Below, piece by piece: positions 9,440 through 62,172 of a DNA stretch of 64,000 nucleotides. The stretch comes from Mycobacterium sp. (GTDB lineage: Bacteria > Actinomycetota > Actinomycetes > Mycobacteriales > Mycobacteriaceae). Location: contig NZ_JAOPWB010000218.1 of the NCBI RefSeq assembly GCF_025965855.1, positions 14,263 through 78,262 of the forward strand. Reading direction: 5' to 3'. Both the position numbers and the translations under genes were made by a program. The notes under the pieces are model-generated. The model saw only the letters and a program-made list of their open reading frames with translations, searched no databases and was not told the origin of the DNA. How positions within the stretch are numbered: the stretch's first letter is position 1; every line of letters begins with the position of its first letter.

Positions 9440-9463
9440 CCGTCTACCGGCCGGTCGGGGAAT

Positions 9464-9688: not shown

Positions 9689-9847
9689 CAGGCACCTCCA
9701 GTGCGCTTCCACCCTTGAGGCAAGGGATACAGCCAATTGCTGATGGTCCGACGTTAGCGAGCCGCGCCCGTTCCCGCACAGCAAATGAAAAGAATTTGCA
9801 CGGCCATAATATTGAGCGCTCCGCGTTGGGACTTTCGGCGACCGCAT

Positions 9848-10843
9848 TCAACTGGCCGCACCCCGGGCGGGCCGACGCCGCATGGACATCACGCCGTCGA
9901 TCGCGTTGCTGACGCACTGTGCGTCCTCTTCGAGCAGCATGTGCCCGGCGGTGGGCCGGCGCAGGTGCGTGGCACCCGGGATGGCCGCCGCAAGGTCGCG
10001 TGCGTGGTCGGCCGGGGTGGTTCGGTCCGCTCCGCCGCTGATGACGACCGTGTTGGCGGCGATCGCGGCCAGCGCGTCGTACTGGTCGTATCGCTTCAGG
10101 CTGGGAAGGAAGCCGGCCGCGGTCGTCAATGAAATGGTGCGGATCGCGGATTGGGTGACCGCCGCGGCGCCATACCGCTCGACGCCGGAATATTTGATGA
10201 TGCCTTCGCAGAAGGGCCGCACCAGCCCGTTGATCGCCTGGTCCGTCGCGCGTCGGGGCATGTGGTGCACGAGGTCGAACAGCGCTCCCGTGGCGCGGGT
10301 GGCCAGCAGGCGGCCGAGCCCCCGTTCGGCGAGTCGGCCGGCCGCGCTGGCGACCAGGACGAGGCCCTGCGGTTCCACCGGGCGATCGGCGGCGGGGCGG
10401 CCCAGGTAGGCCAGCGCCGTCATCCCGCCCATCGAGTGCCCCGCCAGCGTCAGCGGCCCGTTCACGCGCAGAACCGTCAGGACGTCGGCGAGGTCGGCGG
10501 CGAGCCGGTCGATCCGGTAGGTGTGCATGTCGGCGCCGGTCGAACGGCCGTGTCCGCGCTGATCGTAGGTGATGATTCGCACGCTGTTGCCCCACCGGCG
10601 GACCAGGTGACGGACCTGAAGTGCCCAGCTGGACTGCGTCAGGCACAGGCCGTGCAGCAGGACGACGGTGTGTTCGCGGGTACCGGCGGCGCCGTAGTCA
10701 CGGACCGCCAGCCGCACGCCGTCACTGGCGATCACCGTGCGCTCGACATAGCCATCGCACGTGGCGGGCAGTCGTTGCGGGCGAGCGGCAGTTGTCCCAC
10801 CGTACGCGTTTGATCCCGTAGTCAGTTCCGGCTGAGTGAACAC
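9848..10843 (-). CDS. Alpha/beta-fold hydrolase
   Basis: VLLHG, DQRGHGRS, GHSMGG nucleophile, catalytic D and H (DRTTP, AGHM). AGGAG RBS before GTG 10843. Confidence 0.9.
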   Translation of the reverse strand: MFTQPELTTGSNAYGGTTAARPQRLPATCDGYVERTVIASDGVRLAVRDYGAAGTREHTVVLLHGLCLTQSSWALQVRHLVRRWGNSVRIITYDQRGHGRSTGADMHTYRIDRLAADLADVLTVLRVNGPLTLAGHSMGGMTALAYLGRPAADRPVEPQGLVLVASAAGRLAERGLGRLLATRATGALFDLVHHMPRRATDQAINGLVRPFCEGIIKYSGVERYGAAAVTQSAIRTISLTTAAGFLPSLKRYDQYDALAAIAANTVVISGGADRTTPADHARDLAAAIPGATHLRRPTAGHMLLEEDAQCVSNAIDGVMSMRRRPARGAAS

Positions 10844-11056
10844 GGTGGGCTCCTGGTCGGTGTCTATGTCGAGGGGATCCCGACACCTTGTTGCACTCGA
10901 AGCTACGGATGGACGACGGCGCTGGCGCTCTTGTGCGCAATAGCCACGCAACAAGCGATTTTGAGCTATTTGCGGATTGTGCTCAGTGCGGGTCGTCGGC
11001 TGAGGCGCCAGCAACCAGATTCCTTGCCGCACTGGCATTTAGCAGCTCGCGGAAGC

Positions 11057-12238
11057 CTAATCTCCGCCGTCGCCGCCGTGTCCCTTGCCGTGGCCTTTAC
11101 CAGGGCCGCGCCGTGGCGGAACCGGGGGTTGTTCGGTGGGTGGGGGCGGGGGCACCGGATTGCTGACGGGCACCGGCGACGGACTGCTCGTGGTCACCGG
11201 ATTGGCGGGTGCGTGCGAGGGCGCGGGATCGAACGCGATCGCGAACGGGACAACGATCATTGCCGCCAAGACCGCGAGGGCTGCGAGCACCTTCTTTGTG
11301 CGGCCTGCCATCCGTGGAACCCGTGGGGGCACAAACGGATTGGCTACCGGCGGCGGCAGCGGCATCTCGAGCACCTTGGTGGCCGGGCGCCGCGGCGCGG
11401 CGACCGGCACGCCGGGCGTGCTCGCGGTCCGACGGCCGTGCAGGACTTCCCGCATCTCCCCGGCGCTGCCGAACCGCTGTCGGGGATCCGGCGCCATCGC
11501 GCGTTCGATCACGGTGATCAGGGCGGCATCGACGTCGGGTCGTAGCAGGGTGAGTGGCGGCGGGCGGTCATGCAAGATGGCGCGGGCCAGTGCGGCCATA
11601 TTGTCGTGTGGGAAGGGGCGATGGCCCGCAAGTGCTTCATAGCCCACCACCCCGACGGCGTAAAGGTCGTCGGCCACACAGGCGGGCGCCCCGGCGAGCC
11701 GCTGGGGGCTCAAGTAGGCGATCGTGCCCACGACCTGGCCGGTCAGTGTGAGGGCGGCCTCCCGGGTCTTGGCGATCCCGAAGTCCGCGACCTTCACGAT
11801 CTCGCCGTCGGCACCGACCAGGATGTTTCCGGGCTTGATGTCCCGATGCAGGATGGCCGCGCAATGCGCGGCGGTCAGTGCGGCGAGAACGTTGTCGAGC
11901 GCGGCCCGGACCTGCGGGTATGGACGGGGACCGCGAGCTATCTGGTCGGCGAGGGTGTCGCCGGGCAACCGTTCCATCACGATGAAAGGGATGCCGTCGT
12001 GCTCGCCGCTGTCGTAGACCGCGACGATGTTCGGTTGGTTCAGCGCGGCGGCCGCGCGCGCCTCCCCGTCGAATCGGCTCCGAATGTCGGGTTGCGCGTT
12101 GAACGCCGGGTGCAAGAGCTTGATGGCGATGGGGCGATTTAGTCGGGTGTCCCAGCCGTCGCGAACCTCGGCCATGCCACCGAGGCCAAGCCTGCCCCGC
12201 ACCTCGTAGCGGCCAGAAAGCAACGCGAGGGTGTTCAT
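11057..12238 (-). CDS. Ser/Thr protein kinase with one TM helix and a short Pro-rich tail
   Basis: LGLGGMAEV, AIK, HRDIKPGN, DFG; TM VLAALAVLAAMIVVPFAIAF. The APE motif reads SPQ. Confidence 0.92.
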   Translation of the reverse strand: MNTLALLSGRYEVRGRLGLGGMAEVRDGWDTRLNRPIAIKLLHPAFNAQPDIRSRFDGEARAAAALNQPNIVAVYDSGEHDGIPFIVMERLPGDTLADQIARGPRPYPQVRAALDNVLAALTAAHCAAILHRDIKPGNILVGADGEIVKVADFGIAKTREAALTLTGQVVGTIAYLSPQRLAGAPACVADDLYAVGVVGYEALAGHRPFPHDNMAALARAILHDRPPPLTLLRPDVDAALITVIERAMAPDPRQRFGSAGEMREVLHGRRTASTPGVPVAAPRRPATKVLEMPLPPPVANPFVPPRVPRMAGRTKKVLAALAVLAAMIVVPFAIAFDPAPSHAPANPVTTSSPSPVPVSNPVPPPPPTEQPPVPPRRGPGKGHGKGHGGDGGD

Positions 12239-12477
12239 TCGCCCTGCCAATCCCCACAGCTTTATAGACGATCGGGCACTGGACGCGACGACCGACGTGC
12301 CCGGTCGGCTACCCAAAGGTCGGCGGTTCAAAACGCATGCGCGCGACGACCAGCGCTTTTACGCGTCGCGCTCAGCGGGCGCGACATTTTCGCAATCCGA
12401 TCGAGGCGTCGCTCCGAAGGACTATCGAGCAGTAGTTGTGGCGGGGACGCCGTAGGTCGAAGAGGAGGCCTGTCTTG

Positions 12478-12780
12478 ATGGGAATAGCGACGTTCAAAAC
12501 GGTTGCTGCTGGCGATGGTTCACCGCAATCCGCATCCGAATACCGCTACTACCTGCTGGTCCACGCGATCGCGACGGCGCTGCTGTTGATCGCTTTGGTG
12601 GCCGCAATATGGCAGTTCATGGACTGGATCGTGGCGCCGGCATGCCCGAAGGACGCCTCCCTGCCGTCGGCGTCGTCGTCGACGGTGGCCGCGTCACACC
12701 GCTATTCGGGCGGCGCCGAGTCGGCGCTCTACGAGGCCGACTGCCCCTGCCCCCGCGAGCGTCAGCGCGAGAAGGTTTAG
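12478..12780 (+). CDS. Hypothetical single-pass membrane protein
   Basis: GAGGAGG RBS; hydrophobic LLVHAIATALLLIALVAAIWQFM segment. Confidence 0.5.
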   Translation: MGIATFKTVAAGDGSPQSASEYRYYLLVHAIATALLLIALVAAIWQFMDWIVAPACPKDASLPSASSSTVAASHRYSGGAESALYEADCPCPRERQREKV

Positions 12781-14045
12781 AACGCCTCGGGATTGCGCTG
12801 GACCTCGACCGGCACCGGGTGGCGGTAGAGCCGAGACGCGTTCTCCCAGCTGAACTTACGTATCACGTCCGGCGGCAGATCGCCGATCTGCTCGTGGATC
12901 GTTTCTTGGGTGTGCGGCCAGGTGGAGTCGCAGTGCGGGTAATCGGCTTCCAACATGATGTTGTCCACGCCTATCCGGTCGCGCTGCACGAACGACGACT
13001 TGTCCTCCACTGCGCAGAACCAGAAATTCCGGGTGAAAACCTCTGCGGGAGTCAAGCTTTCGCCAAGGGCTTGCCAGGTGCCGTACATCGCGTGGTAGCT
13101 GAGCATGTGGTCGAGGCGATCCAACAGCCCAGCAACCCAGCCGATTCCGCCTTCCGACAGACAGATTTTCAGGTCGGGGAACCTGCTGGGCAGGCCGGAA
13201 TACAACCAGTCGACCGCCGCGGAAATGGCGTAGGCGAAGAACAGCACGCCCTGGACATCCGGCGGCGCATCGTCGGTGGTGGACGGCGAGGATCCCGACG
13301 ACCCGATGTGCAGGTTCACGACGGTGTCCGTCTCGGCGCACGCGGCCATTATCGGGTCCCAGTGGCCGGAGTGAATGCTCGGCAATCCGAGCATCGCCGG
13401 GTTCTCGCTGAAGGTGACGGCGTGAAAACCGCGTTCGGCGTTCTCATAGATCATCTTCGCGCCGAGCTCGGGGTCCAGCAGCCACGGCAATTGGCAGGGA
13501 ATGATGCGTGCGGGATATGAACCCGCCCAGACCTCGAGGTGCCAGTCGTTCCAGGCCCGCACGGAGGCCAACGCCAGGTCGCGATCCTTGGTGACCTGCT
13601 GCAGCCGCTGGCCGGCGAACCCCGGCAGGAACGAAGGAAAATTGAGCGAGGCGTATATGCCGTTCAGATCCATGTCTGTGACACGCGCGTGGATATCCCA
13701 CGCACCCCTGCGCATCTCGTCGAACCGGACCGGCTCGAATCCGTACTCCGCCACCGGCCGCCCGACCACGGCGTTGAATCCGACATTGGGCAGTTCCCGG
13801 CCGTCGTAGACCCAGGTCTGTCCCCCGTTCCCGGTCTCCACGACCTTTGGGGCGCGGTCGGCGAACTTTCGCGGCAGGCGGCCGGTGAAGGTATCCGGCG
13901 GTTCGACGATGTGGTCGTCCACCGAGATCACCGGGTAGCGGCGCCGCGCCCGCGGCGGATCCGGCAGCAAAGTGACCGAGCGATCATGCCCGGTCTTTGC
14001 CGTGGTGAAGTTCAGGTCACCCGCCAGCTCATCGATCGATTTCAC
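12777..14045 (-). CDS. Amidohydrolase family protein (Amidohydro_2-like)
   Basis: ISVDDH, NLHIG, SEGGIGW, EADYPH motifs. Confidence 0.9.
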   Translation of the reverse strand: MKSIDELAGDLNFTTAKTGHDRSVTLLPDPPRARRRYPVISVDDHIVEPPDTFTGRLPRKFADRAPKVVETGNGGQTWVYDGRELPNVGFNAVVGRPVAEYGFEPVRFDEMRRGAWDIHARVTDMDLNGIYASLNFPSFLPGFAGQRLQQVTKDRDLALASVRAWNDWHLEVWAGSYPARIIPCQLPWLLDPELGAKMIYENAERGFHAVTFSENPAMLGLPSIHSGHWDPIMAACAETDTVVNLHIGSSGSSPSTTDDAPPDVQGVLFFAYAISAAVDWLYSGLPSRFPDLKICLSEGGIGWVAGLLDRLDHMLSYHAMYGTWQALGESLTPAEVFTRNFWFCAVEDKSSFVQRDRIGVDNIMLEADYPHCDSTWPHTQETIHEQIGDLPPDVIRKFSWENASRLYRHPVPVEVQRNPEAF

Positions 14046-14080
14046 TCGTCACTCTCCTTGCGGGCCAGGGTCGTGCAAAT

Positions 14081-14157
14081 CGAGCGTGCGATGACGGCTT
14101 TCGGTGGGCGCTGCCAGCGACGTCGGTCGGCGTGTCGCCGCCCCGCGTGCACACTCA
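14081..14157. repeat. Degenerate intergenic palindromic (REP-like) element
   Basis: GAGCGTGC...GCACACTC ends with an internal GGCGTGTCG core, similar to 6621-6680. Confidence 0.45.
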
Positions 14158-14928
14158 CTTGAGGACATCGGGACCGGCCTTGATGGTCATCCGCGCCGCC
14201 CCCGCCCAGTACACGTCGGCGGCGCGTTCGATCAGCGACCGTTGCATGCCGGCCATGTCCGACCAGTTCATCTTCGCCGGCTCCCGGCCGGTGAGCATGA
14301 CGTCATAGGCCAGCTTGCATACCCGTTCGATCGACGCCGCCCGGTAGACGGCTTCCGGCAGGCTGCGACCGGTGGCGATGACACCGTGGTTGGCCAGGAT
14401 CGTGAGGTTCGCGCCCCCGATGCGCGCGGCGAGGTCCGCCGCGCGGGCCGGGCTGTCGATCTCCCCGTCGTACGTGTCGACCAGGCACAGGTCGTCGAGG
14501 TATAGCGAACCGGTTTGGTGGACCAGTTCGGGGAGCCTGCCCAGCGCGGCGAGCACGCATACGTAATAGGGGTGGTTGTGAATGACCACCCGGGCGTCGT
14601 CGCGGACGCGGTGCAGTTCCGTGTGGATGTGGATGGCCGGGGTGACATCCCATCGACCTCGGACCACCCTTGCGTCGCTGTCCACCATGCAGATGTCTGA
14701 GGCGGTGAGCTCCTGCCACCACAGCCCCCACGGATTGACGAACATGTCCGTTTGGCCGTCGAGCTGCCACGTGATGTGTCCGGCCATGTTCTCGGCGAAT
14801 CCGATGGCGGCGAGGTGCCGGAAGGCGACGGCGAGCGCCTGCTCGTTGGACAGCTCGACGCCGATCGGGGGCACCACCGATGGCGACCAGACCTCGAGGC
14901 CACCTCGACGTGCGTCAGGAGCGTTCAT
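14155..14928 (-). CDS. Class II aldolase/adducin family protein
   Basis: AGHIT, IHIHTELH, IHNHP and ANHG Zn-ligand pattern. Confidence 0.88.
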   Translation of the reverse strand: MNAPDARRGGLEVWSPSVVPPIGVELSNEQALAVAFRHLAAIGFAENMAGHITWQLDGQTDMFVNPWGLWWQELTASDICMVDSDARVVRGRWDVTPAIHIHTELHRVRDDARVVIHNHPYYVCVLAALGRLPELVHQTGSLYLDDLCLVDTYDGEIDSPARAADLAARIGGANLTILANHGVIATGRSLPEAVYRAASIERVCKLAYDVMLTGREPAKMNWSDMAGMQRSLIERAADVYWAGAARMTIKAGPDVLK

Positions 14929-52341: not shown

Positions 52342-54243
52342 CTAATCGCCGGTGCGCGTGAATGTTTCGTCATAGTCCACGCTCCGTTGGCAGTCGGGCC
52401 GGCCCGACGACTCGTCGAGGTGATCGTGGCCGACGAGCTGCGTGATGGGATCCTGTGGTGGTTGCGGCAGCGCATACTGCCCGGTGGTTCTCGCGTAGAC
52501 CGCCCCGCCACAGCTTGGATCGTTGTCGTCGTGCTCGACGTGCAAGGTCCAGTTTCCGCCGTCATACACCAGCGGTGTATCAAGCGTTTTCGAGTGGAAA
52601 TAGCTCATGCACCGGTCGCCGGTGCGCAGGCAGTCGGTAATGACGGCCTGGTCCGCCTGCTGTGCGGGGATCCCTCTTTTGAACCTTCGCGTGGCGTGGT
52701 AGCGGCCGTGCAGCGCTTCGGCCGCCGACCCCACCCGCGGCGGTAGGGTGCTCGGGTCGGGGAGCCTAGTGATGTCGACGTCTCCGGAGCGGCTGAAGGT
52801 CACTGTCCGCCTTTCGTTGCAGGCGTTGGCCGAAGCCCCGCGATATTCGCCGGCGAGGGTGCCGTCCGGCCGCGCCTGAAGCGTCAACACCTGCCACACT
52901 TCGGCCGGGGTGTCTCGGCACTTGTCCGAGCTGAGGGTCACAGCCACCCAGCGCCCGTCTATCTCGTCGAAAACCGCGCTCGATGCGAGCCGCAGCTCGC
53001 CGCCGACGCGTTGCGCGGTCGCCCGGCAACCGGTCGGTCCGCATTCCGAGCGGACGTCGTACGTGTCCATTTCCGGACCCGCACCCGGACCCGGGACGTC
53101 GTCGAGGGTGGTGCCCTGGCCGAAGTGCACACGGTAGACACCGGTGAAGGGTCCGGTGTTCGGCGCCGCGGCCGCGGTATTTCCGGGCGCGGCGGCGGGA
53201 TTGTTCGCCGCGGTGCGGCCCGGGTCGTGGTGCCGGAGGAGTTTCACGCCCGCGAAGACACCACCGGCGACGACGAGCAAGGCGATGCCCGCCAGCGCGC
53301 CGATCAGCGCCCGGGGACGGCGCCGAGGCCGCATCGCGGGGATGGTTGCGTCGATCGCAGGTTGGGTGTCCGGGAAGGCGACGTCACCGTGCTGGCCGAA
53401 GCCCGGACCCAGCTCCCGGGCCAGTTGGTCGGCGAATTCCCGGCAGCTGCCGAACCGTTCGGATGGCTCCTTGGCCATCGCGGTGGCAAACACGGAATCC
53501 AGCGCGGCGAGCTCCGGCCGGCGGGCACCGATCGAGGGCGGGGCGGCGCCGATGTGCTGGCTGATCACCACGGCGGGGTTCGAGTCGGCGTATGGCGGCG
53601 CCCCGGTCAGCATGTGAAACGCGGTGCAGGCCAACGCATATTGATCGGCGCGCCCGTCGACCGGCTCGCCCTTCAACTGCTCGGGCGCGACATAGGCCAC
53701 CGTGCCGACCGTCATGTTGGTCGCGGTCAGTCCGGTCGCGTCATCGATGTGGCGCGCGAGCCCGAAGTCGGCGAGGTAAACCCGCCGCGCCTGACCGTCG
53801 GGGTCGGTCAACAAAATGTTGGCCGGCTTGACGTCGCGGTGCAGCAACCCTCGGCCGTGCGCGTAATCCAGCGCCGAGCCGACCGCCGTAATGATCGCCA
53901 CCACCTCTTCGAGTGGCATCCCGCCCGGGTGGCTTTCGCGCAACAGCCGGCCCGCATCGGTGCCGGCCACGTAATCCATCGAGATCCAGAACCGGCCATC
54001 CTCTTGGCCGCGGTCATGGATGGTGACGATGTGCGGATGAGACAACCCGGCGGCCAACTCGGCCTCACGCATGAAGCGGCCCCGAAACTCCGGATCGCCG
54101 GTCAGCTCCGCGGGCAGGACCTTCAGCGCATCCTCGCGCGGCAATCGTGGATGCGCCGCCAGGTACACCTGCCCCATCCCGCCCGCGCCCAACTCCCGCA
54201 CGATCTTGAACCCGGCAAACACCTGACCGCTCTCGAGCGACAT
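52342..54243 (-). CDS. Transmembrane Ser/Thr kinase with a PknI-like ectodomain (copy A)
   Basis: [21 protein letters not shown]; TM helix; Cys-containing ectodomain ending FTRTGD. Confidence 0.92.
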
Positions 54244-54258
54244 GGCCAAATCGTAGAT
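54241..54258 (-). promoter_or_regulatory. Putative leaderless promoter of kinase A
   Basis: ATCTACGAT-TTGGCC-ATG: TANNNT box 6 nt before the ATG; identical 18-mer at 56141-56158. Confidence 0.6.
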
Positions 54259-54319
54259 GCTGAAGCCGCAGCCGCACCCGCAATTCGCCCCGGACACGAC
54301 TCGCTGCCGCGCCTTCCCC

Positions 54320-56143
54320 CTAATCGCCGGTGCGCGTGAAGGTTTCGTCGAAGTCCGTGTTGAGCGCGCACGGCGCGGTCTGTTCCTGGTGAGCGCGGCC
54401 GGTGAGCTTCGCGATCGGATCCCCCGGCGGTTGAGGGAGCGGATACTGCCCGCTGGATTTCATGTGCGCTGTGTCGCCGGAATGCGGGCACGTGATGTCG
54501 GCGTCGACGTTCCAGGTCCAGCGTCCGCCTCCGAATACCAGCGGTTGGTCGGCCGATGGTTCGTGGAAGTAGCTCATGCAGCGATCACCGGTGCGCAGGC
54601 AGTCGGTCCCGACAGCGGTGTTCAACTGCTGCTGTGGGAGCCCGTTCGTGAAAGTCCGCATCAGGCGGTAGTGACCGCGCAGCCCCTGGGCCGGCGACAC
54701 CACCCGCGGCGGTTGGGTGCCCGGGTCGGGAAGGCTGTTGACGTCGACGTCGCCGGTTCGGGTGAAGGACACGGTGCGCTTGTTGGCGCAGGCGTTGGCG
54801 GCAGTCGTGGTGTACTCGCCGCCGAGGCCGCCGTCGGGGCGGGGGCGCAGCGTGAACACCTGCCAGAATTCCGCGGCTGCCTCGCGGCACTTATCCGGCC
54901 CGACGGTGACCGCCACCCAGGTCCCGCCGATCTGGTCGAACACCATCGTCGGTTGAGCGACGGTTTCCCCGCCAAGGCGGGACGCCGTCATTACGCAGCC
55001 GGCGGGGCGGCACACCGAGCGCAGCCCGTACGTGCTCGTCAGCGCGGGTGGCGCGCCGGCATCCGGGACGTCGTCGAGGGCGGTGACCGGCCCGAACTCG
55101 GCCCGATAGGTGCCCGTGACGGGACCCGCGGGCGGGGCCGGGTTGTGCTGTCCGGTGAGCTTCAGGGTCGCGACGACGCCGGCCGCGACGAGCGACGCGA
55201 TGCCCGCCAGGGCGGCGATGAGGACAGCGGGGCGGCGGGCCAGTTTCGGCCGCTGCAACGCAAGCACGGTCGCATCCAACGCCGGCTGGGGATGCGAGGG
55301 TGCCGCGCTGAGCTGCCGACCCAATTCCTGGGCGAACTCCCCGCAGCTGTTGAACCGGCCGGCAGGGTCCTTGGCCATCGCGGTGGCAAACACGGGATCC
55401 AGGCCCGTCAACTCCGGCCGGTGGGCACCGATCGACGGCGGCGGGGCGCTGACGTGTTGGCCGATGACGACCGCGAGGTTGGGGCCACCGTACGGCGGCG
55501 CGCCGGCCAGCAGGTGAAATGCGGTGCACGCCAAGGCATATTGATCGGCGCGGCCGTCGACGGACCCGGCCATCAACTGCTCGGGCGCCGCGTAGGCCAC
55601 CGTGCCCACCGCCATCTTCGTCGTGGTCAGCCCCGCCGCATCATCGACGCGTCGCGCGATGCCGAAGTCGGCCAAGAAAATTCGGCGCGGCTGGCCATCC
55701 GAATCGGTGAGGAGAATGTTGGCCGGCTTCACATCGCGGTGCAGCAAGCCTCGATGGTGGGCGTAATCGAGCGCCGACGCGACCGCGGTAACGATCGCCA
55801 TCGCGTCCTCGACCGGCATCCCGCCCGGGAATTGCTCACCCAACAAACGGGCCACATCGGTGCCGGCCACGTATTCCATCGAGATCCAGAACTGGCCTTC
55901 ATATTCACCGCGGTCGTGGATCCCCACGATGTGTGGATGAGACAGCCCGGCGGCCAACTCCGCTTCCCGCTCGAATCGCTCCCGGTACTGGAGATCGGCG
56001 GTGACTTCGGTCGGCAACACCTTGAGCGCGTCCTCGCGCGGCAACCGTGGGTGCCGGGCCAGGTACACCCGGCCCATGCCGCCAGAGCCCAGCACCCGCA
56101 GGATGGTGTATCCCGCAAACACCCGGCCGGTCTCAAGCGACAT
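54320..56143 (-). CDS. Transmembrane Ser/Thr kinase with a PknI-like ectodomain (copy B)
   Basis: [21 protein letters not shown]; close paralog of 52342-54243. Confidence 0.92.
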
Positions 56144-56158
56144 GGCCAAATCGTAGAT
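56141..56158 (-). promoter_or_regulatory. Putative leaderless promoter of kinase B
   Basis: Same 18-mer as 54241-54258. Confidence 0.6.
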
Positions 56159-56173: not shown

Positions 56174-57661
56174 TCAGGCGCTGTTGAGCAGGAGCATGAG
56201 CCCGTAGTCCATGTGGATCTGCTGATGGCAGTGCAGCAGCGACAGGCCGGGTTGGTCGGCGACGAAGTCGATCTCCATGCTCTGGTAACCGCCGAGCATC
56301 GCGACGTCCTTGCGCACGCCGGCGGTCGGCGTGCCGGCGACGCGGGTGATTTCAAAGGTGTGCCGGTGCAGGTGCATCGGGTGCAGGTCGTCGGCGGCGT
56401 TGCGGAAGCGCAGCCGATAGCGCTTGTCCCGCTGCAAATTGAGCACGGGCTGATTGCTGTCCATCGAAAACGCCGTGCCGTTGATCGTCCAGACGTTGAA
56501 GCCGTTGTCGGCGGCGTTGCGCTTCTCGATCAGCATCTCGATGGTTCGATCGGGCGGCGGCACGGGCGCGGGGCCGGGTGACGCGAACAGCCGGTAATCC
56601 CACTTGAACGGCGGGGGCGCCGCCCATTGCGGGTCGCCGCCGCGCCCGGCGTATTCCACGACCGCGCCCATTCCGTGGCCACGGTCGTCGTCGGAAAGGT
56701 CGCCCAGCACCCACACGCCCGGGTTCGTCATGTTGACGAACGCCGAAATGCGCTCGGCCGCACCGAGCCACAGCACCGGCACCGGCACCGGATTGGGCAC
56801 CGGGTTGCCGTCCAGCGCGATCACGTTGAAGGTATGGCCGGGCAAGGCCAGACTGCGGGTTTCGGTGGCGCTGCCGTTGAGGACATGCAACAGCACCCGT
56901 TGACCGGGTTGGACGCGGATGGGGTCGCCGTGGCCGAGCATGCGCCCGTTGACGGCGAATGCCGCGTAACCGACCTCGTAGCCATGTGGGTCGCCGCGGC
57001 CCAGCGAGGCCGTCATCGACGACTCGCCCTTCTCCTTGAGGTCGGGGTCCTGCTCGCCGGGCAGGAAATCGCTGGCCATGTCGCCCCCGCGGCTGAAACT
57101 GGGCTCGAATTCTTTGAGCGTCAAGAAGATCTCTTGGTCGTAGGCGCCCGGGCTCTGCTTGGGTTCGATGTAGACCGGGCCGACCAGGCCGCTGTACTGG
57201 CCGCGGGACAGATCGGCCCGCGGCACGACGTGGGTGTGATAGAAGCGGAAGCCCGACGGGCCCGGGACAAACGAAATGCGCCGCATACCGTGTGCCGGGA
57301 CGTAGGGCGTTCCCTCCTCGGCCGCGCCGTCGACGTCGACGCCCACCTGCTGTCCGTGCCAGTGCAGCTGCTCGGGGGAATCGGTGTCGTTGAAGATGTC
57401 CACCCACGTCCGTTGCCCCTCTTTGAACCGCAGCAGCGGGCCCGGGAACTGGCCGTTGTAGGTCAGGGTCGACGCGATGTGGTCCGGCGCCAACTCCACC
57501 GTTCCGGTGCCGATCCGCAGGGTGTAGTCGGGCCTGCCGTTGGGCGGGGCGGGCGGCGCGGTCCGCGAACAGGCCGCCGCGACGCCGGCGCCCCCGCTCG
57601 CGGTCATCAAGGCCAGCCCACTGCCTTGGAGGAATCGACGCCGGTCGAACGGCATGATCAT
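56174..57661 (-). CDS. Multicopper oxidase, Tat-exported lipoprotein
   Basis: DRRRFLQ twin-arginine motif, VAAAC lipobox; copper motifs HWHG, FYHTH, HPMHLH, HCHQQIH. Confidence 0.93.
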   Translation of the reverse strand: MIMPFDRRRFLQGSGLALMTASGGAGVAAACSRTAPPAPPNGRPDYTLRIGTGTVELAPDHIASTLTYNGQFPGPLLRFKEGQRTWVDIFNDTDSPEQLHWHGQQVGVDVDGAAEEGTPYVPAHGMRRISFVPGPSGFRFYHTHVVPRADLSRGQYSGLVGPVYIEPKQSPGAYDQEIFLTLKEFEPSFSRGGDMASDFLPGEQDPDLKEKGESSMTASLGRGDPHGYEVGYAAFAVNGRMLGHGDPIRVQPGQRVLLHVLNGSATETRSLALPGHTFNVIALDGNPVPNPVPVPVLWLGAAERISAFVNMTNPGVWVLGDLSDDDRGHGMGAVVEYAGRGGDPQWAAPPPFKWDYRLFASPGPAPVPPPDRTIEMLIEKRNAADNGFNVWTINGTAFSMDSNQPVLNLQRDKRYRLRFRNAADDLHPMHLHRHTFEITRVAGTPTAGVRKDVAMLGGYQSMEIDFVADQPGLSLLHCHQQIHMDYGLMLLLNSA

Positions 57662-58425
57662 CGCTCCCGAGGGGACGGGTGGAGAGCGAGAACGGGCAGC
57701 AGGAATTCGATGCGTTCATTCAGTTCGGCTGCCACGCGCCGAAATTCGGGGTAACTCGCCCTACCGGCGGCGACCGACGGGTCGGGCAGGCTCCAATGCA
57801 TCGCCGTGGCCACGCCATGGTCGCGGGCGTATTCGCGGACCTTGTCGCACAACGTGATCACGCAATCGAAGCGCCGACGGGCGACCGCGGCCAACGGCCG
57901 TGGCCGGCTGCCACCAAGGTCAATTCCGTACAGGTCACGCATGATCCGTACCGCGTTGGGATGTATCTGCGGTTTGGGATGACTGCCCGCGCTTGCGGCA
58001 CGGATGCGACCCCGCGTCTTCTCCCGCAGCAGCGCCTCGGCCATCGGCGAGCGCGCGCTATTGCCGGAACATAAAAACAGCACCGACCGGGCCTCGGATC
58101 GCACCGCCGGCTCGGCCTTGGGCACGGGCGCGAGCGCGGGGTGCAATGCGGTTGCCGCCCCGGCGAATTCCGCCGCGCACCTCGTCAAGTCCAGGTGGTA
58201 GTAGGTGTCGCGGGCATCGAAATTGCTGCGCCGCGCGTCGATGAGCCCCGCCAAGCGCAAGAGCCGCAGGTGGTACGAGACCAGGTTTTGCGGCTCGTCG
58301 ATGGCGGTGGCCAATTCCCGTACCCGGTGGTCGCCGGCCGCCAGTTCGGCCAGCAGCGCCCAGCGCACCGGGTGCGACGCCATCTGCATCAGCGGCGGAA
58401 CCACCGCCCGCTCGATTGCCGCCAC
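57658..58425 (-). CDS. ArsR-type HTH fused to an LMW-PTP/ArsC domain
   Basis: HPVRWALLAEL..HRVRELA..PQNLVSYHLRLLR; FLCSGNSARS (CX5R); HWSLPDP. Confidence 0.88.
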   Translation of the reverse strand: MAAIERAVVPPLMQMASHPVRWALLAELAAGDHRVRELATAIDEPQNLVSYHLRLLRLAGLIDARRSNFDARDTYYHLDLTRCAAEFAGAATALHPALAPVPKAEPAVRSEARSVLFLCSGNSARSPMAEALLREKTRGRIRAASAGSHPKPQIHPNAVRIMRDLYGIDLGGSRPRPLAAVARRRFDCVITLCDKVREYARDHGVATAMHWSLPDPSVAAGRASYPEFRRVAAELNERIEFLLPVLALHPSPRER

Positions 58426-58439
58426 CCTTCGGACAATAC

Positions 58440-58455
58440 ATCAAACAAGTTTGAT
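58440..58455. promoter_or_regulatory. Perfect palindrome in the ArsR-fusion/permease divergent spacer
   Basis: ATCAAAC-AA-GTTTGAT (7-2-7). Confidence 0.7.
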
Positions 58456-58483
58456 AGGTTGGCGTGCGCGATAAGGAGACCGA

Positions 58484-59764
58484 GTGCCCGAAAGCAACGC
58501 CGTGACAAACGATGAGCTCCGTCGAAGCCTGGGCGTGTTCGACGCGGTGGTGATCGGACTCGGCTCCATGATCGGCGCCGGCATCTTCGCGGCGCTGGGC
58601 CCCGCGGCACACGCCGCCGGCTCCGGGCTGCTCCTGGGCCTGGGGTTGGCGGCGGTGGTGGCCTACTGCAACGCCACCTCGTCCGCGCGGCTGGCCGCCC
58701 TCTATCCCGCCTCCGGCGGCACCTATCTGTATGGCCGCAAGCGGCTCGGCGATTTCTGGGGCTACTTGGCGGGTTGGGGCTTTGTCGTCGGCAAGACCGC
58801 CTCGTGCGCGGCGATGGCCTTGACCGTCGGCTCATACGCATGGCCGTCGCAGGCGCACCCGGTCGCCGTCGCCGCGGTGGTCGCGCTGACGGCGGTGAAC
58901 TACGCCGGGGTGCAGAAGTCGGCGTGGCTGACCCGCATCATCGTCGCGGTGGTCCTCGCGGTGCTGGCCGCAGTGGTCGTCGCCGTGTTCGTGTCTCGGA
59001 GCGTCAGCGCCGATCACCTGCACCTGGCGGGTGCCACCGTCGGCGGCGTCATCCAGGCCGCGGGCCTGCTGTTTTTCGCCTTTGCCGGCTATGCGCGCAT
59101 CGCCACGCTGGGCGAAGAGGTGCGCGATCCGGCGCGCACCATCCCACGGGCGATCCCCCTGGCACTGGCCATCGCCCTGGCCGTATACGCGCTGGTGGCG
59201 GTCGCGGCGCTCACCGCGCTGGGCCCCCGACGTCTCGCCGAGGCCTCCGCGCCGCTGTCCGAGGCGGTGCGGGCGGCGGGGACCGGCTGGCTGGCGCCCG
59301 TCGTGCAGGTGGGTGCGACCGTGGCGGCACTGGGCTCGCTGCTGGCACTGATTCTCGGGGTCTCGCGCACTACCTTGGCGATGGCGCGCGACCACCACTT
59401 CCCCCACGCGCTGACCGCCGTGCATCCGAGGTTCGGGGTGCCCCACCGCGCCGAGCTGCTGATCGGTGTCGTCGTGGCGGCGTTGGCCGCGACCGCCGAC
59501 CTGCGGGGGGCGATCGGTTTTTCCTCGTTCGCCGTGCTGATCTACTACGCGGTCGCCAACGCCTCCGCGTTCACCCTCCGGCCCGACGAGGGCCGGCCGC
59601 GCCGCGCGATCCCGGTGATCGGACTCGTCGGGTGCGTGGTCTTGGCGTGCGCGCTGCCGCTGTCTGCGGTGCTGTCGGGGACGACGGTGCTGGGCGTTGG
59701 CGTCGCGGCGTACGCGATTCGGCGCCTAACGCGCCAAGTGATGCGACCCGCGGATGACGCGTGA
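58484..59764 (+). CDS. APC-family (amino acid permease-like) transporter
   Basis: LRRSLGVFDAVVIGLGSMIGAGIF, FFAFAGYARIA; about 12 TM segments. Confidence 0.9.
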   Translation: MPESNAVTNDELRRSLGVFDAVVIGLGSMIGAGIFAALGPAAHAAGSGLLLGLGLAAVVAYCNATSSARLAALYPASGGTYLYGRKRLGDFWGYLAGWGFVVGKTASCAAMALTVGSYAWPSQAHPVAVAAVVALTAVNYAGVQKSAWLTRIIVAVVLAVLAAVVVAVFVSRSVSADHLHLAGATVGGVIQAAGLLFFAFAGYARIATLGEEVRDPARTIPRAIPLALAIALAVYALVAVAALTALGPRRLAEASAPLSEAVRAAGTGWLAPVVQVGATVAALGSLLALILGVSRTTLAMARDHHFPHALTAVHPRFGVPHRAELLIGVVVAALAATADLRGAIGFSSFAVLIYYAVANASAFTLRPDEGRPRRAIPVIGLVGCVVLACALPLSAVLSGTTVLGVGVAAYAIRRLTRQVMRPADDA

Positions 59765-59792
59765 CGCCGACTGCGAGAACCACTTGCGGACT

Positions 59793-59828
59793 GATTCGAT
59801 GAATGTTTATATAGAAGAATGTCGAATC
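59793..59828. promoter_or_regulatory. ArsR/SmtB-type operator overlapping the arsR start
   Basis: GATTCGA...TCGAATC outer dyad around ATATA; AT-rich island in GC-rich DNA. Confidence 0.6.
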
Positions 59829-60184
59829 AGGCACCTGCGTGTTGCCCGACACTCGGAGCGGCCGCCATGGATGAACCGCAGGCCGCGGATCTGGCGGCGA
59901 TGTTCAAGGCGTTGGGCGACCCCGTGCGCCTGCGGTTGATGAGCCTGATCGCCAGTCACCCCGGCGGCGAGGCCTGTGTCTGTGAAATATCGGCGACATT
60001 CGACGTCTCCCAGCCAACGATTTCCCATCACCTCAAGCTGCTGCGCTCCGCCGGGCTGCTGGACTGCGAGCGGCGGGGCACCTGGGTGTACTACTGGGTG
60101 ATCTCCTCGGCATTGCAGCAGCTTTCGGCGGTCTTACGTGTCGAGGACTGCCCGCCCGCGACCACTCCCGGGTGCGGTCCGTGA
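59819..60184 (+). CDS. arsR: ArsR repressor
   Basis: KALGDPVRL, ACVCE As(III) box, SQPTISHHLK; N-terminal CC. Confidence 0.92.
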   Translation: MSNQAPACCPTLGAAAMDEPQAADLAAMFKALGDPVRLRLMSLIASHPGGEACVCEISATFDVSQPTISHHLKLLRSAGLLDCERRGTWVYYWVISSALQQLSAVLRVEDCPPATTPGCGP

Positions 60185-61263
60185 CCGCGGCCCCGACGCG
60201 GGCGACCGACCCGGAACCGGTAGCGACCCGGCTCTCCACGCTGGACCGGTTCCTGCCGGTATGGATCGGCGTGGCGATGGCCGCCGGCCTGCTGCTGGGC
60301 CGACTCATTCCAGGTCTCGGATCGGCGTTGAGCGCCATTGCGGTCCAAGGAATTTCACTGCCAATCGCGATCGGCCTGCTGGTCATGATGTATCCGGTGT
60401 TGGCCAAAGTCCGCTACGACCGACTCGACGAGGTCACCGCCGACCGCAGCCTGATGGTGAGCTCGTTGCTGCTCAACTGGCTGATCGGGCCCGCGGTGAT
60501 GTTCACCCTGGCGTGGCTGTTGCTGGCGGATCTGCCCGAGTATCGCACGGGGCTGATCATCGTCGGTCTGGCGCGCTGCATCGCGATGGTCATCATCTGG
60601 AACGACCTCGCCCGAGGCGACCGCGAAGCCGCAGCCGTGCTGGTCGCGCTGAACTCGCTGTTTCAGGTCGCCATGTTCGCCGCACTGGGCTGGTTCTACC
60701 TGTCGGTGCTGCCCGGCTGGCTGGGCCTCCCGCAAACCGGGATCGACGTCTCGCCGCGCCAGATCGGCGAATCCGTGCTCATCTTCCTCGGCGTTCCGCT
60801 GCTCGCCGGATACCTGTCGCGCCGCCTCGGTGAACGGCTCAAGGGCCGGCACTGGTACGAGACCCGGTTCCTGGCCCGCATCGGGCCGTGGGCGTTGTAT
60901 GGGTTGCTGTTCACCATCGTCATCCTGTTCGCCCTGCAGGGCCACCAAATCACCTCCCGGCCATGGGATGTCGCCCGCATCGCGATCCCACTGCTGGCCT
61001 ACTTCGCCGTCATGTGGGCCGGCGGATATGCCCTTGGACTCGTACTCCGGCTCGGCTACGCCCGCACCACGACGCTGGCGTTCACCGCCGCCGGTAACAA
61101 TTTCGAATTGGCGATCGCCGTGGCGATTGTCACCTACGGCGCCGCGTCGGGGCAGGCCCTGGCCGGGGTCGTCGGACCCTTGATCGAAGTGCCCGTGCTT
61201 GTCGGGCTGGTCTACGTTTCCCTCGCGCTGCGTCCCCGCCTGTTCCGAACCGAGCCAGACTGA
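60181..61263 (+). CDS. acr3: Arsenite efflux transporter Acr3
   Basis: LSTLDRFLPVWI, GLARCIAMV, AGNNFELAIAVA, GPLIEVP. Confidence 0.95.
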   Translation: MTAAPTRATDPEPVATRLSTLDRFLPVWIGVAMAAGLLLGRLIPGLGSALSAIAVQGISLPIAIGLLVMMYPVLAKVRYDRLDEVTADRSLMVSSLLLNWLIGPAVMFTLAWLLLADLPEYRTGLIIVGLARCIAMVIIWNDLARGDREAAAVLVALNSLFQVAMFAALGWFYLSVLPGWLGLPQTGIDVSPRQIGESVLIFLGVPLLAGYLSRRLGERLKGRHWYETRFLARIGPWALYGLLFTIVILFALQGHQITSRPWDVARIAIPLLAYFAVMWAGGYALGLVLRLGYARTTTLAFTAAGNNFELAIAVAIVTYGAASGQALAGVVGPLIEVPVLVGLVYVSLALRPRLFRTEPD

Positions 61264-61276
61264 GGAGCCGTCGCCG

Positions 61277-62125
61277 ATGGCCGACAAACCCAGCGTCCTG
61301 TTCGTCTGCGTCCATAACGCCGGCCGCTCGCAGATGGCCGCCGCCTTGCTGAGCCGCATGGCCGGAGAGCGCATCGAAGTCCGCTCCGCGGGAACCGAAC
61401 CCGCCGGTGAGGTCAACCCTGTCGCCGTCGCAGCCATGGCCGAACTCGGTGTTGACATCGCCGCGGCCACCCCCACAATCCTCACCACTGACGCGGTGCA
61501 GATCAGCGACGTCGTGATCACGATGGGCTGCGGTGACACCTGCCCCTACTTCCCGGGAGTGTCCTACCGCGACTGGCAACTGCCCGACCCCGCCGGTCAA
61601 CCCCTGGCCACCGTGCGCGCGATCCGCGACGACATCGCCGACCGCGTCCGGGCCTTGATCACCGAGCTCGTGCCCACGACAGCCCCGCACCCAGAGGAAG
61701 GACCCACCATGTCGCGTGTGCAGTTAGCCCTCAACGTCGACGACCTCGACGAGGCAATCGCGTTTTACTCGAAGCTGTTCAACACCGAGCCGGCGAAGGT
61801 CAAACCCGGCTACGCGAACTTCGCCGTCTCCGAGCCCCCGCTCAAGCTCGTGCTGCTCGAGAACCCGGGCCACGGCGGCACCCTCAACCACCTCGGCGTC
61901 GAAGTCGCCTCCAGCGACACCGTGCACACCGAAATCGCCCGGCTCACCGAGCGGGGGCTCGTCACCGAAGAGGAGATGAACACCACCTGTTGCTTCGCGA
62001 CCCAGGACAAAGTTTGGGTCACCGGGCCCGGCGGCGAACGCTGGGAGGTCTACACCGTCATAGTCGACTCCGAGGCCTTCGGACCAAGCACCGGCGAAGC
62101 CGACGAAGCCTGCTGCCAGGCGTAG
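61277..62125 (+). CDS. arsC-arsI: In-frame ArsC (arsenate reductase) - ArsI/CadI (VOC-fold) fusion ORF
   Basis: VLFVCVHNAGRSQMA..TMGCGDTCP, then with no stop MSRVQLALNVDDL..TTCCFATQDKVWV..WEVY..CC. Internal GAGGAAGGA RBS and ATG at 61709. Confidence 0.88.
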   Translation: MADKPSVLFVCVHNAGRSQMAAALLSRMAGERIEVRSAGTEPAGEVNPVAVAAMAELGVDIAAATPTILTTDAVQISDVVITMGCGDTCPYFPGVSYRDWQLPDPAGQPLATVRAIRDDIADRVRALITELVPTTAPHPEEGPTMSRVQLALNVDDLDEAIAFYSKLFNTEPAKVKPGYANFAVSEPPLKLVLLENPGHGGTLNHLGVEVASSDTVHTEIARLTERGLVTEEEMNTTCCFATQDKVWVTGPGGERWEVYTVIVDSEAFGPSTGEADEACCQA

Positions 62126-62172
62126 GTTGTCCCACCGCGATTCCGGCCGATCCGAAGGGGAAGACTGAGCCG

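What the first reader, a model, noticed from the sequence alone, without database searches (positions are those of the whole stretch)
56174..62125. Extended arsenic locus with an oxidase arm and a permease arm beyond arsR-acr3-arsC
Two regulators with two different operators. The usual ArsR (CVC) heads acr3 and arsC-arsI. A second ArsR-LMWPTP fusion sits over a perfect palindrome between a coupled surface multicopper oxidase and a divergent APC permease. Together these would cover As(V) reduction, As(III) efflux, C-As cleavage and, hypothetically, extracellular oxidation and transport of an arsenic species. I know of no characterised ars system that uses a multicopper oxidase or an APC permease. 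Best candidate for an undescribed system in this window.
Basis: partly seen in the sequence, partly recalled or inferred. Interest (0 to 1): 0.78.

Follow-up and report, generated by a model that had tools for sequence, protein, structure and literature searches.

The report
Arsenic operon beside regulator-oxidase-permease module
An ordinary mycobacterial arsenic-resistance operon sits as an insertable 2.4-kb cassette next to a separate, conserved and uncharacterised three-gene module (a permease, a repressor fused to an arsenate-reductase-like domain, and a laccase-type copper oxidase) whose tie to arsenic is suggestive but unproven.

Summary
All six genes, the ATGA coupling, both operators and the palindrome are real. 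The stretch is two separable units, not one extended ars system.

**Unit 1 (59819-62125).** A standard arsR-acr3-arsC::arsI operon with its own leaderless promoter and operator. It lies in a 2.4-kb indel flanked by an 8-nt direct repeat. Of 42 mycobacterial loci carrying unit 2, 23 have ars genes here, 17 lack them and 2 have another neighbour.

**Unit 2 (56174-59764).** A divergon of APC permease against an ArsR-HTH::two-Cys ArsC-like fusion plus a Tat-lipoprotein multicopper oxidase (MCO). Its single operator, ATCAAA-N4-TTTGAT, is conserved across families and unique in the genome.
- Outside Mycobacterium the fusion is always followed by a Cys-free VOC protein instead of the MCO, and the permease is often beside it.
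- The first-stage scan noted the same fusion-VOC-APC operon in another genome (e1-4845917).

**Link to arsenic (circumstantial).**
- The sensor domain is ArsC-like.
- A sister fusion clade sits in ars operons.
- The permease orthologue abuts ars genes in five architectures across three genera: 6 of 46 genomes, about 0.18 expected by chance.
- Most fusion and permease loci have no ars neighbour.
- Nothing supports arsenic oxidation by the MCO.

The parts
56174..57661 (-). Three-domain multicopper oxidase, probable Tat-exported lipoprotein. The T1 axial residue is non-coordinating (HCHQQIHMDYGL).
   Evidence: Pfam Cu-oxidase_3/Cu-oxidase/Cu-oxidase_2. Below every NCBIfam equivalog cut-off, e.g. 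CueO 94.5 against 525. Signal sequence and Cu motifs are visible in the translation. The axial residue is Leu or Phe in 38/38 orthologues. Best solved relative is 6VOW, a Pseudomonas thermotolerans laccase.
57658..58425 (-). ArsR-type wHTH fused to a two-Cys ArsC-like (LMW-phosphatase fold) domain. Predicted autorepressor of the divergon. The GTG start is probably leaderless.
   Evidence: Pfam HTH_20, HTH_5, LMWPc. Best NCBIfam hits are ArsC models. Best PDB hit is D. indicus ArsC2, 8P5N. The P-loop Cys/Arg/Ser, the TLCD Cys and the DP Asp are invariant in 61 orthologues; the third Cys is absent. ATGA overlap with the MCO start.
58440..58455 (.). Operator-like inverted repeat ATCAAAC-AA-GTTTGAT (conserved core ATCAAA-N4-TTTGAT). 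It lies between back-to-back TANNNT hexamers: 58433-58438 read on the - strand as TATTGT, and 58455-58460 TAGGTT.
   Evidence: Sequence. Conserved in all 24 orthologous intergenic regions inspected, including two non-mycobacterial ones. Present in 13 of 15 non-mycobacterial fusion loci and in none of 20 APC loci lacking the fusion. Unique in the genome. The -10 assignments are inference from consensus.
58484..59764 (+). APC-superfamily permease (AA_permease_2). SD AAGGAGA at about 58473-58479. The last ~14 codons come from the ars cassette.
   Evidence: Pfam. No NCBIfam equivalog cut-off is reached. Orthologues at E<=1e-90 occur in 134 of 401 genomes of the class. The tail junction is shown.
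59713..59720 (+). Left copy of the 8-nt direct repeat CGCGATTC bounding the ars cassette.
   Evidence: Sister loci L037 and L038 carry one copy and lack 59721-62135.
59794..59827 (+). arsR promoter/operator: arms ATTCGA (59794-59799) and TCGAAT (59822-59827) around TATATA (59808-59813). The ATG at 59819 is probably leaderless.
   Evidence: Sequence. Conserved in 21 related ars loci.
59819..60184 (+). ArsR/SmtB repressor with an ACVC motif and an N-terminal CC.
   Evidence: NCBIfam HTH_metalloreg 93 bits against a cut-off of 55. Translation.
60172..61263 (+). Acr3 arsenite efflux permease. It overlaps arsR by 13 nt.
   Evidence: TIGR00832 438 bits against a cut-off of 282.8.
61277..62125 (+). 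Three-Cys thioredoxin-type ArsC fused in frame to ArsI/CadI (vicinal CC).
   Evidence: LMWPc + Glyoxalase. NF041414 211 bits against a cut-off of 116. Translation.
62136..62143 (+). Right copy of the direct repeat CGCGATTC, followed by a relic of the ancestral APC 3' end.

Best explanation
Two adjacent but separable units.

**Unit 1 (59721-62135).** An ordinary As(III)-derepressed arsR-acr3-arsC::arsI cassette. It was inserted into the 3' end of the permease gene.

**Unit 2.** An autonomous divergon. A dimeric ArsR-HTH::ArsC-like fusion binds one inverted repeat that lies between two back-to-back -10 elements. From there it represses both its own leaderless fusion-MCO transcript and the APC permease transcript.
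- The fused domain keeps the arsenate-reductase P-loop cysteine, arginine, aspartate and second cysteine, but has no resolving cysteine.
- I propose it is the sensor. An oxyanion is captured at the P-loop, most likely arsenate (about 0.4). A covalent Cys adduct or a Cys-Cys disulfide forms and releases the repressor from DNA.
- The permease is a widespread actinobacterial amino-acid-type transporter. It has repeatedly been placed under ArsR-family control or beside ars genes, so it probably moves a compound that matters under metalloid stress (about 0.5).
- The MCO is a mycobacterial replacement for the VOC protein that follows the fusion elsewhere. It is laccase-like. It probably oxidises an organic or thiol substrate outside the membrane rather than arsenic itself.

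**Shown:** gene content, separability, operator conservation and uniqueness, residue conservation, linkage statistics.

**Inferred:** repression, the inducer, transport direction and substrates.
For: **Separability**
- 23 loci carry ars genes beside the permease, 17 do not and 2 have another neighbour, among 42 triad loci.
- The junction is precise, with an 8-nt repeat and a relic of the old APC tail.
- arsR has its own conserved promoter/operator.

**Divergon**
- The operator is conserved from Mycobacterium to other actinobacterial families.
- It is unique in the genome.
- It is absent from APC loci that lack the fusion.
- The fusion and MCO genes are coupled by an ATGA overlap.

**Sensor domain**
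- The catalytic residues are invariant in 61 orthologues.
- Best family and structure matches are arsenate reductases.
- The sister clade (33-36% identity) lies next to arsC or acr3 in 8 of 8 loci.

**Module outside Mycobacterium**
- A VOC gene follows the fusion in 15 of 15 loci. The APC is divergent-adjacent in 6, and within 4 kb in one more.
- Metagenome contigs also show a co-directional fusion-VOC-APC arrangement.

**Permease and ars genes**
- 6 of 46 genomes holding both have them within 10 kb, against about 0.18 expected.
- Five different architectures are seen. One is arsM<>arsR-acr3-arsC-APC. Another is arsR-arsN1-like<>flavoprotein-APC.

**MCO**
- MCO orthologues were found only beside the fusion: 5 of 5 genomes among 401.
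- The axial residue is Leu or Phe in 38 of 38 orthologues, and there is no Met-rich segment.
Against:
- 14 of 15 non-mycobacterial fusion loci have no ars gene nearby.
- About 70 of 80 metagenomic APC loci show neither ars genes nor the fusion nearby, though many contigs are short.
- About half of the fusion-bearing non-mycobacterial genomes have no Acr3 match at all.
- The VOC partner has no cysteine and does not match ArsI/CadI. None of the effectors therefore has known arsenic chemistry.
- The chance expectation assumes uniform gene placement. The permease sits in variable regions in at least one genus, which inflates the apparent enrichment.
- LMW-phosphatase cysteines are also classic targets of oxidants, so the inducer could be redox stress.
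Confidence: 0.5

Rival explanations
1. One reading: one integrated, extended ars pathway. The exported MCO oxidises As(III) or methyl-As(III) outside the cell, and the APC permease carries an arsenic species. Both are switched by the second regulator as arms of the same system as arsR-acr3-arsC-arsI.
For: - The units are physically adjacent in 23 of 42 mycobacterial loci.
- A second, different ars island (an M. tuberculosis-like Rv2640c-cadI-arsR-acr3 set with PstS) sits at the same junction in L043 and L134.
- One genome of another family carries fusion-VOC, an MCO remnant, DoxX, APC and arsC-arsC-arsR-acr3 within 9 kb.
- The regulator's sensor domain is ArsC-like.
Against: - The triad persists without the ars cassette in 17 mycobacterial loci, and the state changes at least five times on the tree.
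- The two units have separate promoters and unrelated operators.
- The MCO is restricted to Mycobacterium plus one decayed copy. It replaces a cytoplasmic VOC protein, so it is not a core part of the module.
- Known As(III) oxidases are molybdoenzymes, and known MAs(III) oxidases are flavoproteins (established knowledge). MCOs are one-electron oxidases.
- No paper in the library links an MCO directly to arsenic oxidation.
Confidence: 0.15
2. The module has nothing to do with arsenic. The fusion senses oxidants, electrophiles or a natural-product toxin through its reactive P-loop cysteine. The VOC (bleomycin-resistance-like binder or dioxygenase) or the laccase-type MCO, sometimes with DoxX, detoxifies that compound, and the permease exports it or imports a protective amino acid. 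ars cassettes land beside it only because the site is a variable region.
For: - Most fusion-VOC(-APC) loci have no ars genes nearby.
- The closest solved relatives of the VOC are glyoxalase/bleomycin-resistance family proteins.
- DoxX-family genes follow the permease in three loci: L025, L109 and L203.
- The MCO has a laccase-type non-coordinating axial residue.
- The permease flanks are not syntenic within one genus.
Against: - The sensor domain scores best against arsenate reductases, not tyrosine phosphatases, and it lacks the aromatic DPYY wall.
- The sister clade of the fusion is embedded in ars operons in 8 of 8 loci.
- The permease adjoins ars genes in five architectures, about 30-fold above the uniform expectation.
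- Two different ars islands occupy the same junction in Mycobacterium.
Confidence: 0.3
3. Copper homeostasis: the MCO is an MmcO/CueO-type cuprous oxidase, and the fusion is a metal-sensing ArsR/SmtB repressor.
For: The top NCBIfam hits are CopA/CueO-type models. It is a Tat-lipoprotein like mycobacterial MmcO (own knowledge).
Against: - Scores are far below the cut-offs: 115 against 479, and 94.5 against 525.
- There is no Met axial ligand and no Met-rich segment.
- The genome has a second MCO of 32% identity elsewhere.
- The HTH part has no alpha-5 or alpha-3N metal-ligand set, and its single Cys is not conserved.
- In other taxa the MCO's place is taken by a VOC protein.
Confidence: 0.05

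Closest known systems
Actinobacterial arsR-acr3-arsC operons (Corynebacterium glutamicum ars1/ars2; M. tuberculosis Rv2640c-Rv2643; Rhodococcus aetherivorans BCP1, PMC6514093)
   Same: Unit 1 has the same parts and order: a CVC-type ArsR autorepressor, Acr3, a thioredoxin-type LMW ArsC, and an ArsI/CadI VOC enzyme.
   Different: - ArsC and ArsI are one reading frame here; in most relatives they are two genes.
- The cassette is inserted into the 3' end of a permease gene.
ArsR-ArsC fusion proteins noted in ars operons (Microbacterium, Leptospirillum ferriphilum, Sinorhizobium, PMC6205960; SSN clusters C4 and C7 in PMC6514093)
   Same: The same two-domain architecture: an ArsR wHTH plus an LMW-phosphatase-type ArsC domain. 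All are uncharacterised as regulators.
   Different: - This clade shares only 33-36% identity with the ars-operon clade sampled here.
- It uses a different operator: ATCAAA-N4-TTTGAT against TTGA(G/C)TCAA.
- It controls a VOC or MCO gene and an APC permease, not arsC or acr3.
Thioredoxin-coupled arsenate reductases (S. aureus pI258 ArsC; Deinococcus indicus ArsC2, PDB 8P5N, PMC10483234)
   Same: - P-loop CX5R(S).
- Second cysteine in a (T/V)(L/V)CD motif.
- DP general acid.
- Best sequence matches among solved structures.
   Different: - The third, resolving cysteine (Cys89 in pI258, Cys94 in DiArsC2) is Ala here and is absent throughout the clade.
- The domain is tethered to a DNA-binding domain.
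Bacterial laccase-like MCOs (Pseudomonas thermotolerans laccase, PDB 6VOW) and cuprous oxidases (CueO, mycobacterial MmcO)
   Same: - Three cupredoxin domains and a full Cu ligand set.
- Like 6VOW, G-L-M at the axial position.
- Like MmcO, a Tat-lipoprotein.
   Different: - Roughly 30% identity or less to solved structures.
- No Met-rich insert.
- Translationally coupled to an ArsR-family repressor gene.
Known organoarsenical and arsenite permeases (ArsP, ArsK, ArsJ; ArsQ, GntP family, PMC8552651)
   Same: A secondary transporter gene embedded in or next to ars clusters and placed under ArsR-family control.
   Different: - It belongs to the APC superfamily, which none of the named ars permeases does.
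- Most orthologues are not ars-linked.
- The substrate is unknown.

Membership tests
ACR3 arsenite efflux family (60172-61263) | Full-length match to TIGR00832 above the curated cut-off | tested here: met
   438.1 bits against 282.8
ArsI/CadI VOC metalloenzyme (C-terminal half of 61277-62125) | Match to NF041414 above the cut-off, plus a vicinal Cys pair | tested here: met
   211.4 bits against 116. TTCCF is visible in the translation.
Thioredoxin-type LMW ArsC (N-terminal half of 61277-62125) | CX5R P-loop plus the Cys82/Cys89-equivalent pair | tested here: met
   CVHNAGRS and GCGDTCP motifs. The equivalog cut-offs are not reached because it is one domain of a fusion.
As(III)-responsive ArsR (59819-60184) | ArsR/SmtB wHTH above the cut-off, plus cysteines able to form an As(III) thiolate site | tested here: met
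   NF033788 93 bits against 55. ACVC in the helix before the recognition helix and an N-terminal CC. As(III) binding itself is not testable here.
Thioredoxin-coupled arsenate reductase (C-domain of the fusion, 57658-58425) | P-loop Cys-X5-Arg-Ser nucleophile | tested here: met
   CSGNSARS. The Cys, Arg and Ser are invariant in 61 orthologues.
Thioredoxin-coupled arsenate reductase (C-domain of the fusion) | Three-cysteine relay (Cys10-Cys82-Cys89 in pI258 numbering) | tested here: not met
   The second Cys is present (TLCD). The third position aligns to Ala against DiArsC2 Cys94. NCBIfam ArsC scores of 49-53 bits fall below the cut-offs of 157-215.
LMW protein tyrosine phosphatase (C-domain of the fusion) | DPYY aromatic wall and better fit to PTP than to ArsC models | tested here: not met
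   The motif is WSLPDPS, with no YY. The PTP model NF008486 scores 27.9 bits, below the ArsC models.
ArsR-ArsC fusion regulators of ars operons | wHTH + LMWPc in one chain, and location within or beside arsC/acr3 as the local regulator | tested here: inconclusive
   The architecture is met. The context is met only through the neighbouring cassette, which is absent in 17 of 42 mycobacterial and 14 of 15 other loci. The operator differs from that of the ars-linked clade.
CueO/MmcO cuprous oxidases | Equivalog-level match, Met axial T1 ligand and a Met-rich substrate region | tested here: not met
   CueO model 94.5 bits against 525. Axial Leu or Phe in 38/38 orthologues. No Met-rich segment.
Three-domain laccase-like multicopper oxidase | Three cupredoxin domains with the HxH, HxH, HxxHxH and HCHxxxH ligand motifs | tested here: met
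   Pfam domains. HWHG, HTH, HPMHLHRH and HCHQQIH are in the translation.
Arsenite oxidases (Aio/Arx) or MAs(III) oxidases (ArsH, ArsV) | Molybdopterin/Rieske subunits, or a flavoprotein fold | tested here: not met
   No such domains occur in 56174-62125.
APC superfamily amino-acid permease | AA_permease_2 / AA_permease full-length match | tested here: met
   139.9 and 131.1 bits. No substrate-specific NCBIfam equivalog cut-off is reached, so the substrate is untested.

The most novel reading that the evidence does not exclude
The fusion-VOC/MCO-APC module is an undescribed metalloid or organo-oxyanion defence system.
- The ArsC-like domain acts as a covalent arsenate (or arsonate/phosphonate amino-acid) sensor, which would be the first As(V)-type ArsR-family switch.
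- The APC permease is a new arsenic-related transporter for an amino-acid-like arsenical (arsinothricin-type) or a thiol-arsenic conjugate. This would explain its repeated recruitment beside arsM, an arsN1-like gene, arsI and acr3.
- The VOC or MCO is the matching detoxifying enzyme.
Probability: 0.25. Interest if true: 0.75.

Novelty: new variant of a known kind. Interest (0 to 1): 0.5.

Why it matters
New ars genes (arsH, I, J, K, N, P, Q) have mostly been found by following genes that recur beside ars operons.

Three things here could follow that path:
- **The permease.** An APC-family permease shows such recurrence in three actinobacterial genera.
- **The repressor.** Its sensor is a near-complete arsenate reductase domain. 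If it responds to arsenate, it would be a direct As(V) sensor. That is useful for biosensors, and it would fill a gap, because characterised ArsR proteins sense trivalent species.
- **The divergon.** It is compact (one operator, two leaderless or short-leader promoters) and easy to test.

The work also corrects the picture. The ars operon itself is ordinary and mobile, and the oxidase is a lineage-specific add-on rather than an arsenic oxidase.

Tried and rejected
- **A wider regulon:** the operator occurs only once in the genome, so there are no remote targets.
- **The VOC partner as an ArsI-type C-As lyase:** rejected. It has no ArsI/CadI match and no cysteine.
- **The MCO as an MmcO/CueO orthologue:** rejected.
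- **A shared operator between the two fusion clades:** rejected.
- **Synteny around the permease in genus g53,** to show an ars insertion there: the flanks are not syntenic, so this was uninformative.
- **Literature searches** for an MCO or an APC permease in ars systems, and for functional work on ArsR-ArsC fusions, found only passing mentions.
- **One Pfam call** failed on a wrong coordinate and was repeated.
- **Not attempted:** structure prediction and the 1.84-billion-protein profile search, because they would not separate the rival explanations.

Full report
**What is there**

The window comes from a slow-growing Mycobacterium; source names attached to near-identical proteins say so. The window maps to G000:C99.

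- a three-domain multicopper oxidase (MCO), 56174-57661, minus strand
- an ArsR-type HTH fused to an LMW-phosphatase/ArsC-like domain, 57658-58425, minus strand
- an APC permease, 58484-59764, plus strand
- ArsR, 59819-60184
- Acr3, 60172-61263
- ArsC fused to ArsI/CadI, 61277-62125

The MCO has an RRRFL twin-arginine motif, a VAAAC lipobox and all copper ligands. Its start overlaps the stop of the fusion gene (ATGA).

The inverted repeat lies at 58440-58455 and reads ATCAAAC-AA-GTTTGAT.

**Two units, not one**

I collected 47 orthologous loci from named Mycobacterium genomes and mapped the window's proteins on them.
- The triad (permease, then divergently fusion and MCO) is present wherever the contig allows.
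- The arsR-acr3-arsC-arsI block lies between the permease and a RibD_C gene in 23 of 42 complete loci (window included).
- It is missing in 17, where RibD_C abuts the permease. Two more have another neighbour.
- On a tree of the triad DNA the two states are interleaved, with at least five changes.

Comparison with the closest ars-less relatives (L037, L038) defines the indel as 59721-62135.
- An 8-nt direct repeat, CGCGATTC, sits at both ends, and the relatives carry a single copy.
- After the right-hand repeat the window still holds a relic of the permease's original 3' end.
- The cassette was therefore inserted into the end of the permease gene and gave it a new tail of about 14 codons.

arsR has its own element, ATTCGA...TATATA...ATG TCGAAT. 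It is conserved in 21 loci and unrelated to the other operator.

A different, M. tuberculosis-like island occupies the same junction in L043 and in metagenome contig L134. Its genes are a CoA-disulfide-reductase-like gene, PstS, a fusion of the other clade, an Rv2640c-type ArsR, CadI/ArsI, ArsR and Acr3.

**The divergon and its operator**

The core ATCAAA-N4-TTTGAT is conserved immediately upstream of every fusion orthologue inspected.
- This includes Actinoallomurus and uncultured Actinomycetota loci at 50-61% protein identity.
- It is found once per locus and once in the 6.15-Mb genome.
- It is absent from 20 permease loci that lack the fusion.

In the window it is bracketed by two TANNNT hexamers that face outward.
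- TATTGT lies 7 nt before the fusion's GTG, which implies a leaderless transcript.
- TAGGTT lies before a short leader with an AAGGAGA Shine-Dalgarno sequence for the permease.
- These promoter assignments are inference from consensus.

One bound dimer would occlude both promoters, which is classic ArsR/SmtB autorepression.

**The sensor domain**

An alignment of 61 orthologues shows these residues invariant:
- the P-loop Cys, Gly-Asn-Ser, Arg and Ser
- the Cys-Asp of TLCD
- the His-Trp-Ser...Asp-Pro motif

The third cysteine of thioredoxin-type reductases is missing. The lone cysteine of the HTH part is not conserved.

The domain's best NCBIfam hits are ArsC models. Its best solved relative is Deinococcus indicus ArsC2, crystallised with arsenate (8P5N); the position of Cys94 in that enzyme aligns to Ala here.

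A second fusion clade (33-36% identity) lies next to arsC and/or acr3 in 8 of 8 loci sampled. It uses another operator, TTGA(G/C)TCAA.

Published work mentions ArsR-ArsC fusions only as an observation (PMC6205960, PMC6514093).

**What the module looks like elsewhere**

I examined 15 non-mycobacterial genomes carrying the fusion orthologue.
- The next gene is always a coupled VOC/glyoxalase-fold protein of about 130 aa. It has no cysteine, does not match ArsI/CadI and resembles bleomycin-resistance-type proteins.
- The permease is divergent-adjacent in 6 of the 15, and within 4 kb in a seventh.

Among 80 metagenomic permease loci, 9 carry the fusion: 3 with the MCO and 6 with the VOC gene. Several are in a co-directional order, mostly fusion-VOC-permease. 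The first-stage scan had noted that same operon in another genome (e1-4845917).

One Mycobacterium genome (L025) has a decayed VOC remnant after the fusion and no MCO.

MCO orthologues were found in only 5 of 401 genomes of the class, each beside the fusion. The single non-mycobacterial copy (L109) has an internal deletion and a frameshift, and follows the permease and a DoxX gene.

The MCO is therefore a lineage-specific substitute for the VOC protein. Its T1 axial residue is Leu or Phe in 38 of 38 orthologues. That matches its best solved relative, the Pseudomonas thermotolerans laccase 6VOW. There is no Met-rich region, and the genome holds a second MCO of 32% identity elsewhere.

**Is the permease tied to arsenic?**

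The permease is widespread: 134 of 401 genomes have an orthologue at E<=1e-90. Acr3 is present in 121, and 46 genomes have both.

In six of those 46, from three genera, the two genes lie within 10 kb. Uniform placement predicts about 0.18.

The architectures all differ:

| Locus | Arrangement |
|---|---|
| Window type | permease, arsR, acr3, arsC::arsI |
| L043/L134 | M. tuberculosis-like island at the same junction |
| L109 | permease, PadR, arsC, arsC, arsR, acr3 |
| L127 | arsM<>arsR-acr3-arsC-permease (ArsM 299 bits, cut-off 263) |
| L126 | permease-flavoprotein<>arsR-GNAT...acr3; the GNAT's best match is ArsN1, below cut-off |

In three of these the permease is plausibly transcribed from an ArsR-family-controlled promoter.

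Caveats:
- 18 of 20 sampled permease loci without the fusion have no ars gene.
- Most metagenomic loci have none.
- The gene sits in non-syntenic regions in one genus.
- I ran no control transporter.

No APC permease is among the named ars transporters. ArsQ, for example, is GntP-like (PMC8552651).

**Most likely mechanism and its weight**

*Shown:*
- the two units are separable
- the operator belongs to the fusion and is unique in the genome
- the reductase-type active site is conserved, without a resolving cysteine
- VOC and MCO are interchangeable as the coupled gene
- the permease is recurrently placed with the fusion and with ars genes

*Inferred:*
- the fusion represses both promoters
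- an oxyanion captured at the P-loop cysteine (arsenate the leading candidate, about 0.4) forms an adduct or a Cys119-Cys191 disulfide that releases the repressor
- the permease moves an amino-acid-like compound that matters under metalloid stress (about 0.5)
- the MCO oxidises an organic or thiol substrate outside the membrane, not arsenic

Rival explanations and rough weights:
- a purely redox, electrophile or toxin-sensing module with chance ars adjacency: 0.3
- copper homeostasis: 0.05

**Verdict**

- The ars operon is ordinary.
- The neighbouring divergon belongs to a conserved, uncharacterised actinobacterial module. It is a new variant within ArsR-family-controlled stress systems, with a suggestive but unproven arsenic connection.
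- Simple reporter and binding tests would settle the question.

Noticed in passing
window 61277-62125: ArsC and ArsI/CadI form one reading frame here and in a few relatives (L057, L060, L062, L068, L077: a single tblastn segment). Most related loci give two segments in different frames, which indicates two separate or overlapping genes.
   Followed up: partly
window 52342-56149 and loci L037-L047: Two tandem Ser/Thr protein kinase genes follow the MCO in many mycobacterial loci, 24 nt after its stop in the window. They are absent from other triad loci, so the right-hand flank is also variable.
   Followed up: no
G000:C357:34787-36212 (L088/L089): A second multicopper oxidase in the same genome, 32% identical to the window's MCO. 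It is reported as two adjacent matches. It may be the MmcO-type copper oxidase, possibly frameshifted.
   Followed up: no
L109 (G325:C1) 10949-14256: In a genome of another family, the permease, a DoxX-family gene and an MCO 69% identical to the window's lie in one direction. The MCO lacks about 61 residues and changes frame, so it is a pseudogene. A PadR gene and arsC-arsC-arsR-acr3 follow.
   Followed up: partly
L025 (G027:C182) 6970-11542: A Mycobacterium variant of the module: a hemerythrin-domain gene and a decayed VOC remnant lie downstream of the fusion. The permease is followed by a DoxX/HvfX-like gene and a MerR-family (CueR/ZntR-like) regulator.
   Followed up: partly
L043 217-3591: The alternative ars island next to the triad carries a CoA-disulfide-reductase-like flavoprotein, a PstS phosphate-binding protein and a fusion of the other (ars-linked) ArsR-ArsC clade. 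This MAG therefore encodes both fusion clades side by side.
   Followed up: partly
L029-L036, upstream of the ars-linked fusion genes: The ars-linked fusion clade has its own conserved palindrome, TTGA(G/C)TCAA, often duplicated, immediately before the start codon.
   Followed up: no
L027 5753-8061: In one non-mycobacterial locus the fusion-VOC pair is divergent from a 249-aa protein with no family match and an animal-haem-peroxidase-domain protein, instead of the permease.
   Followed up: no
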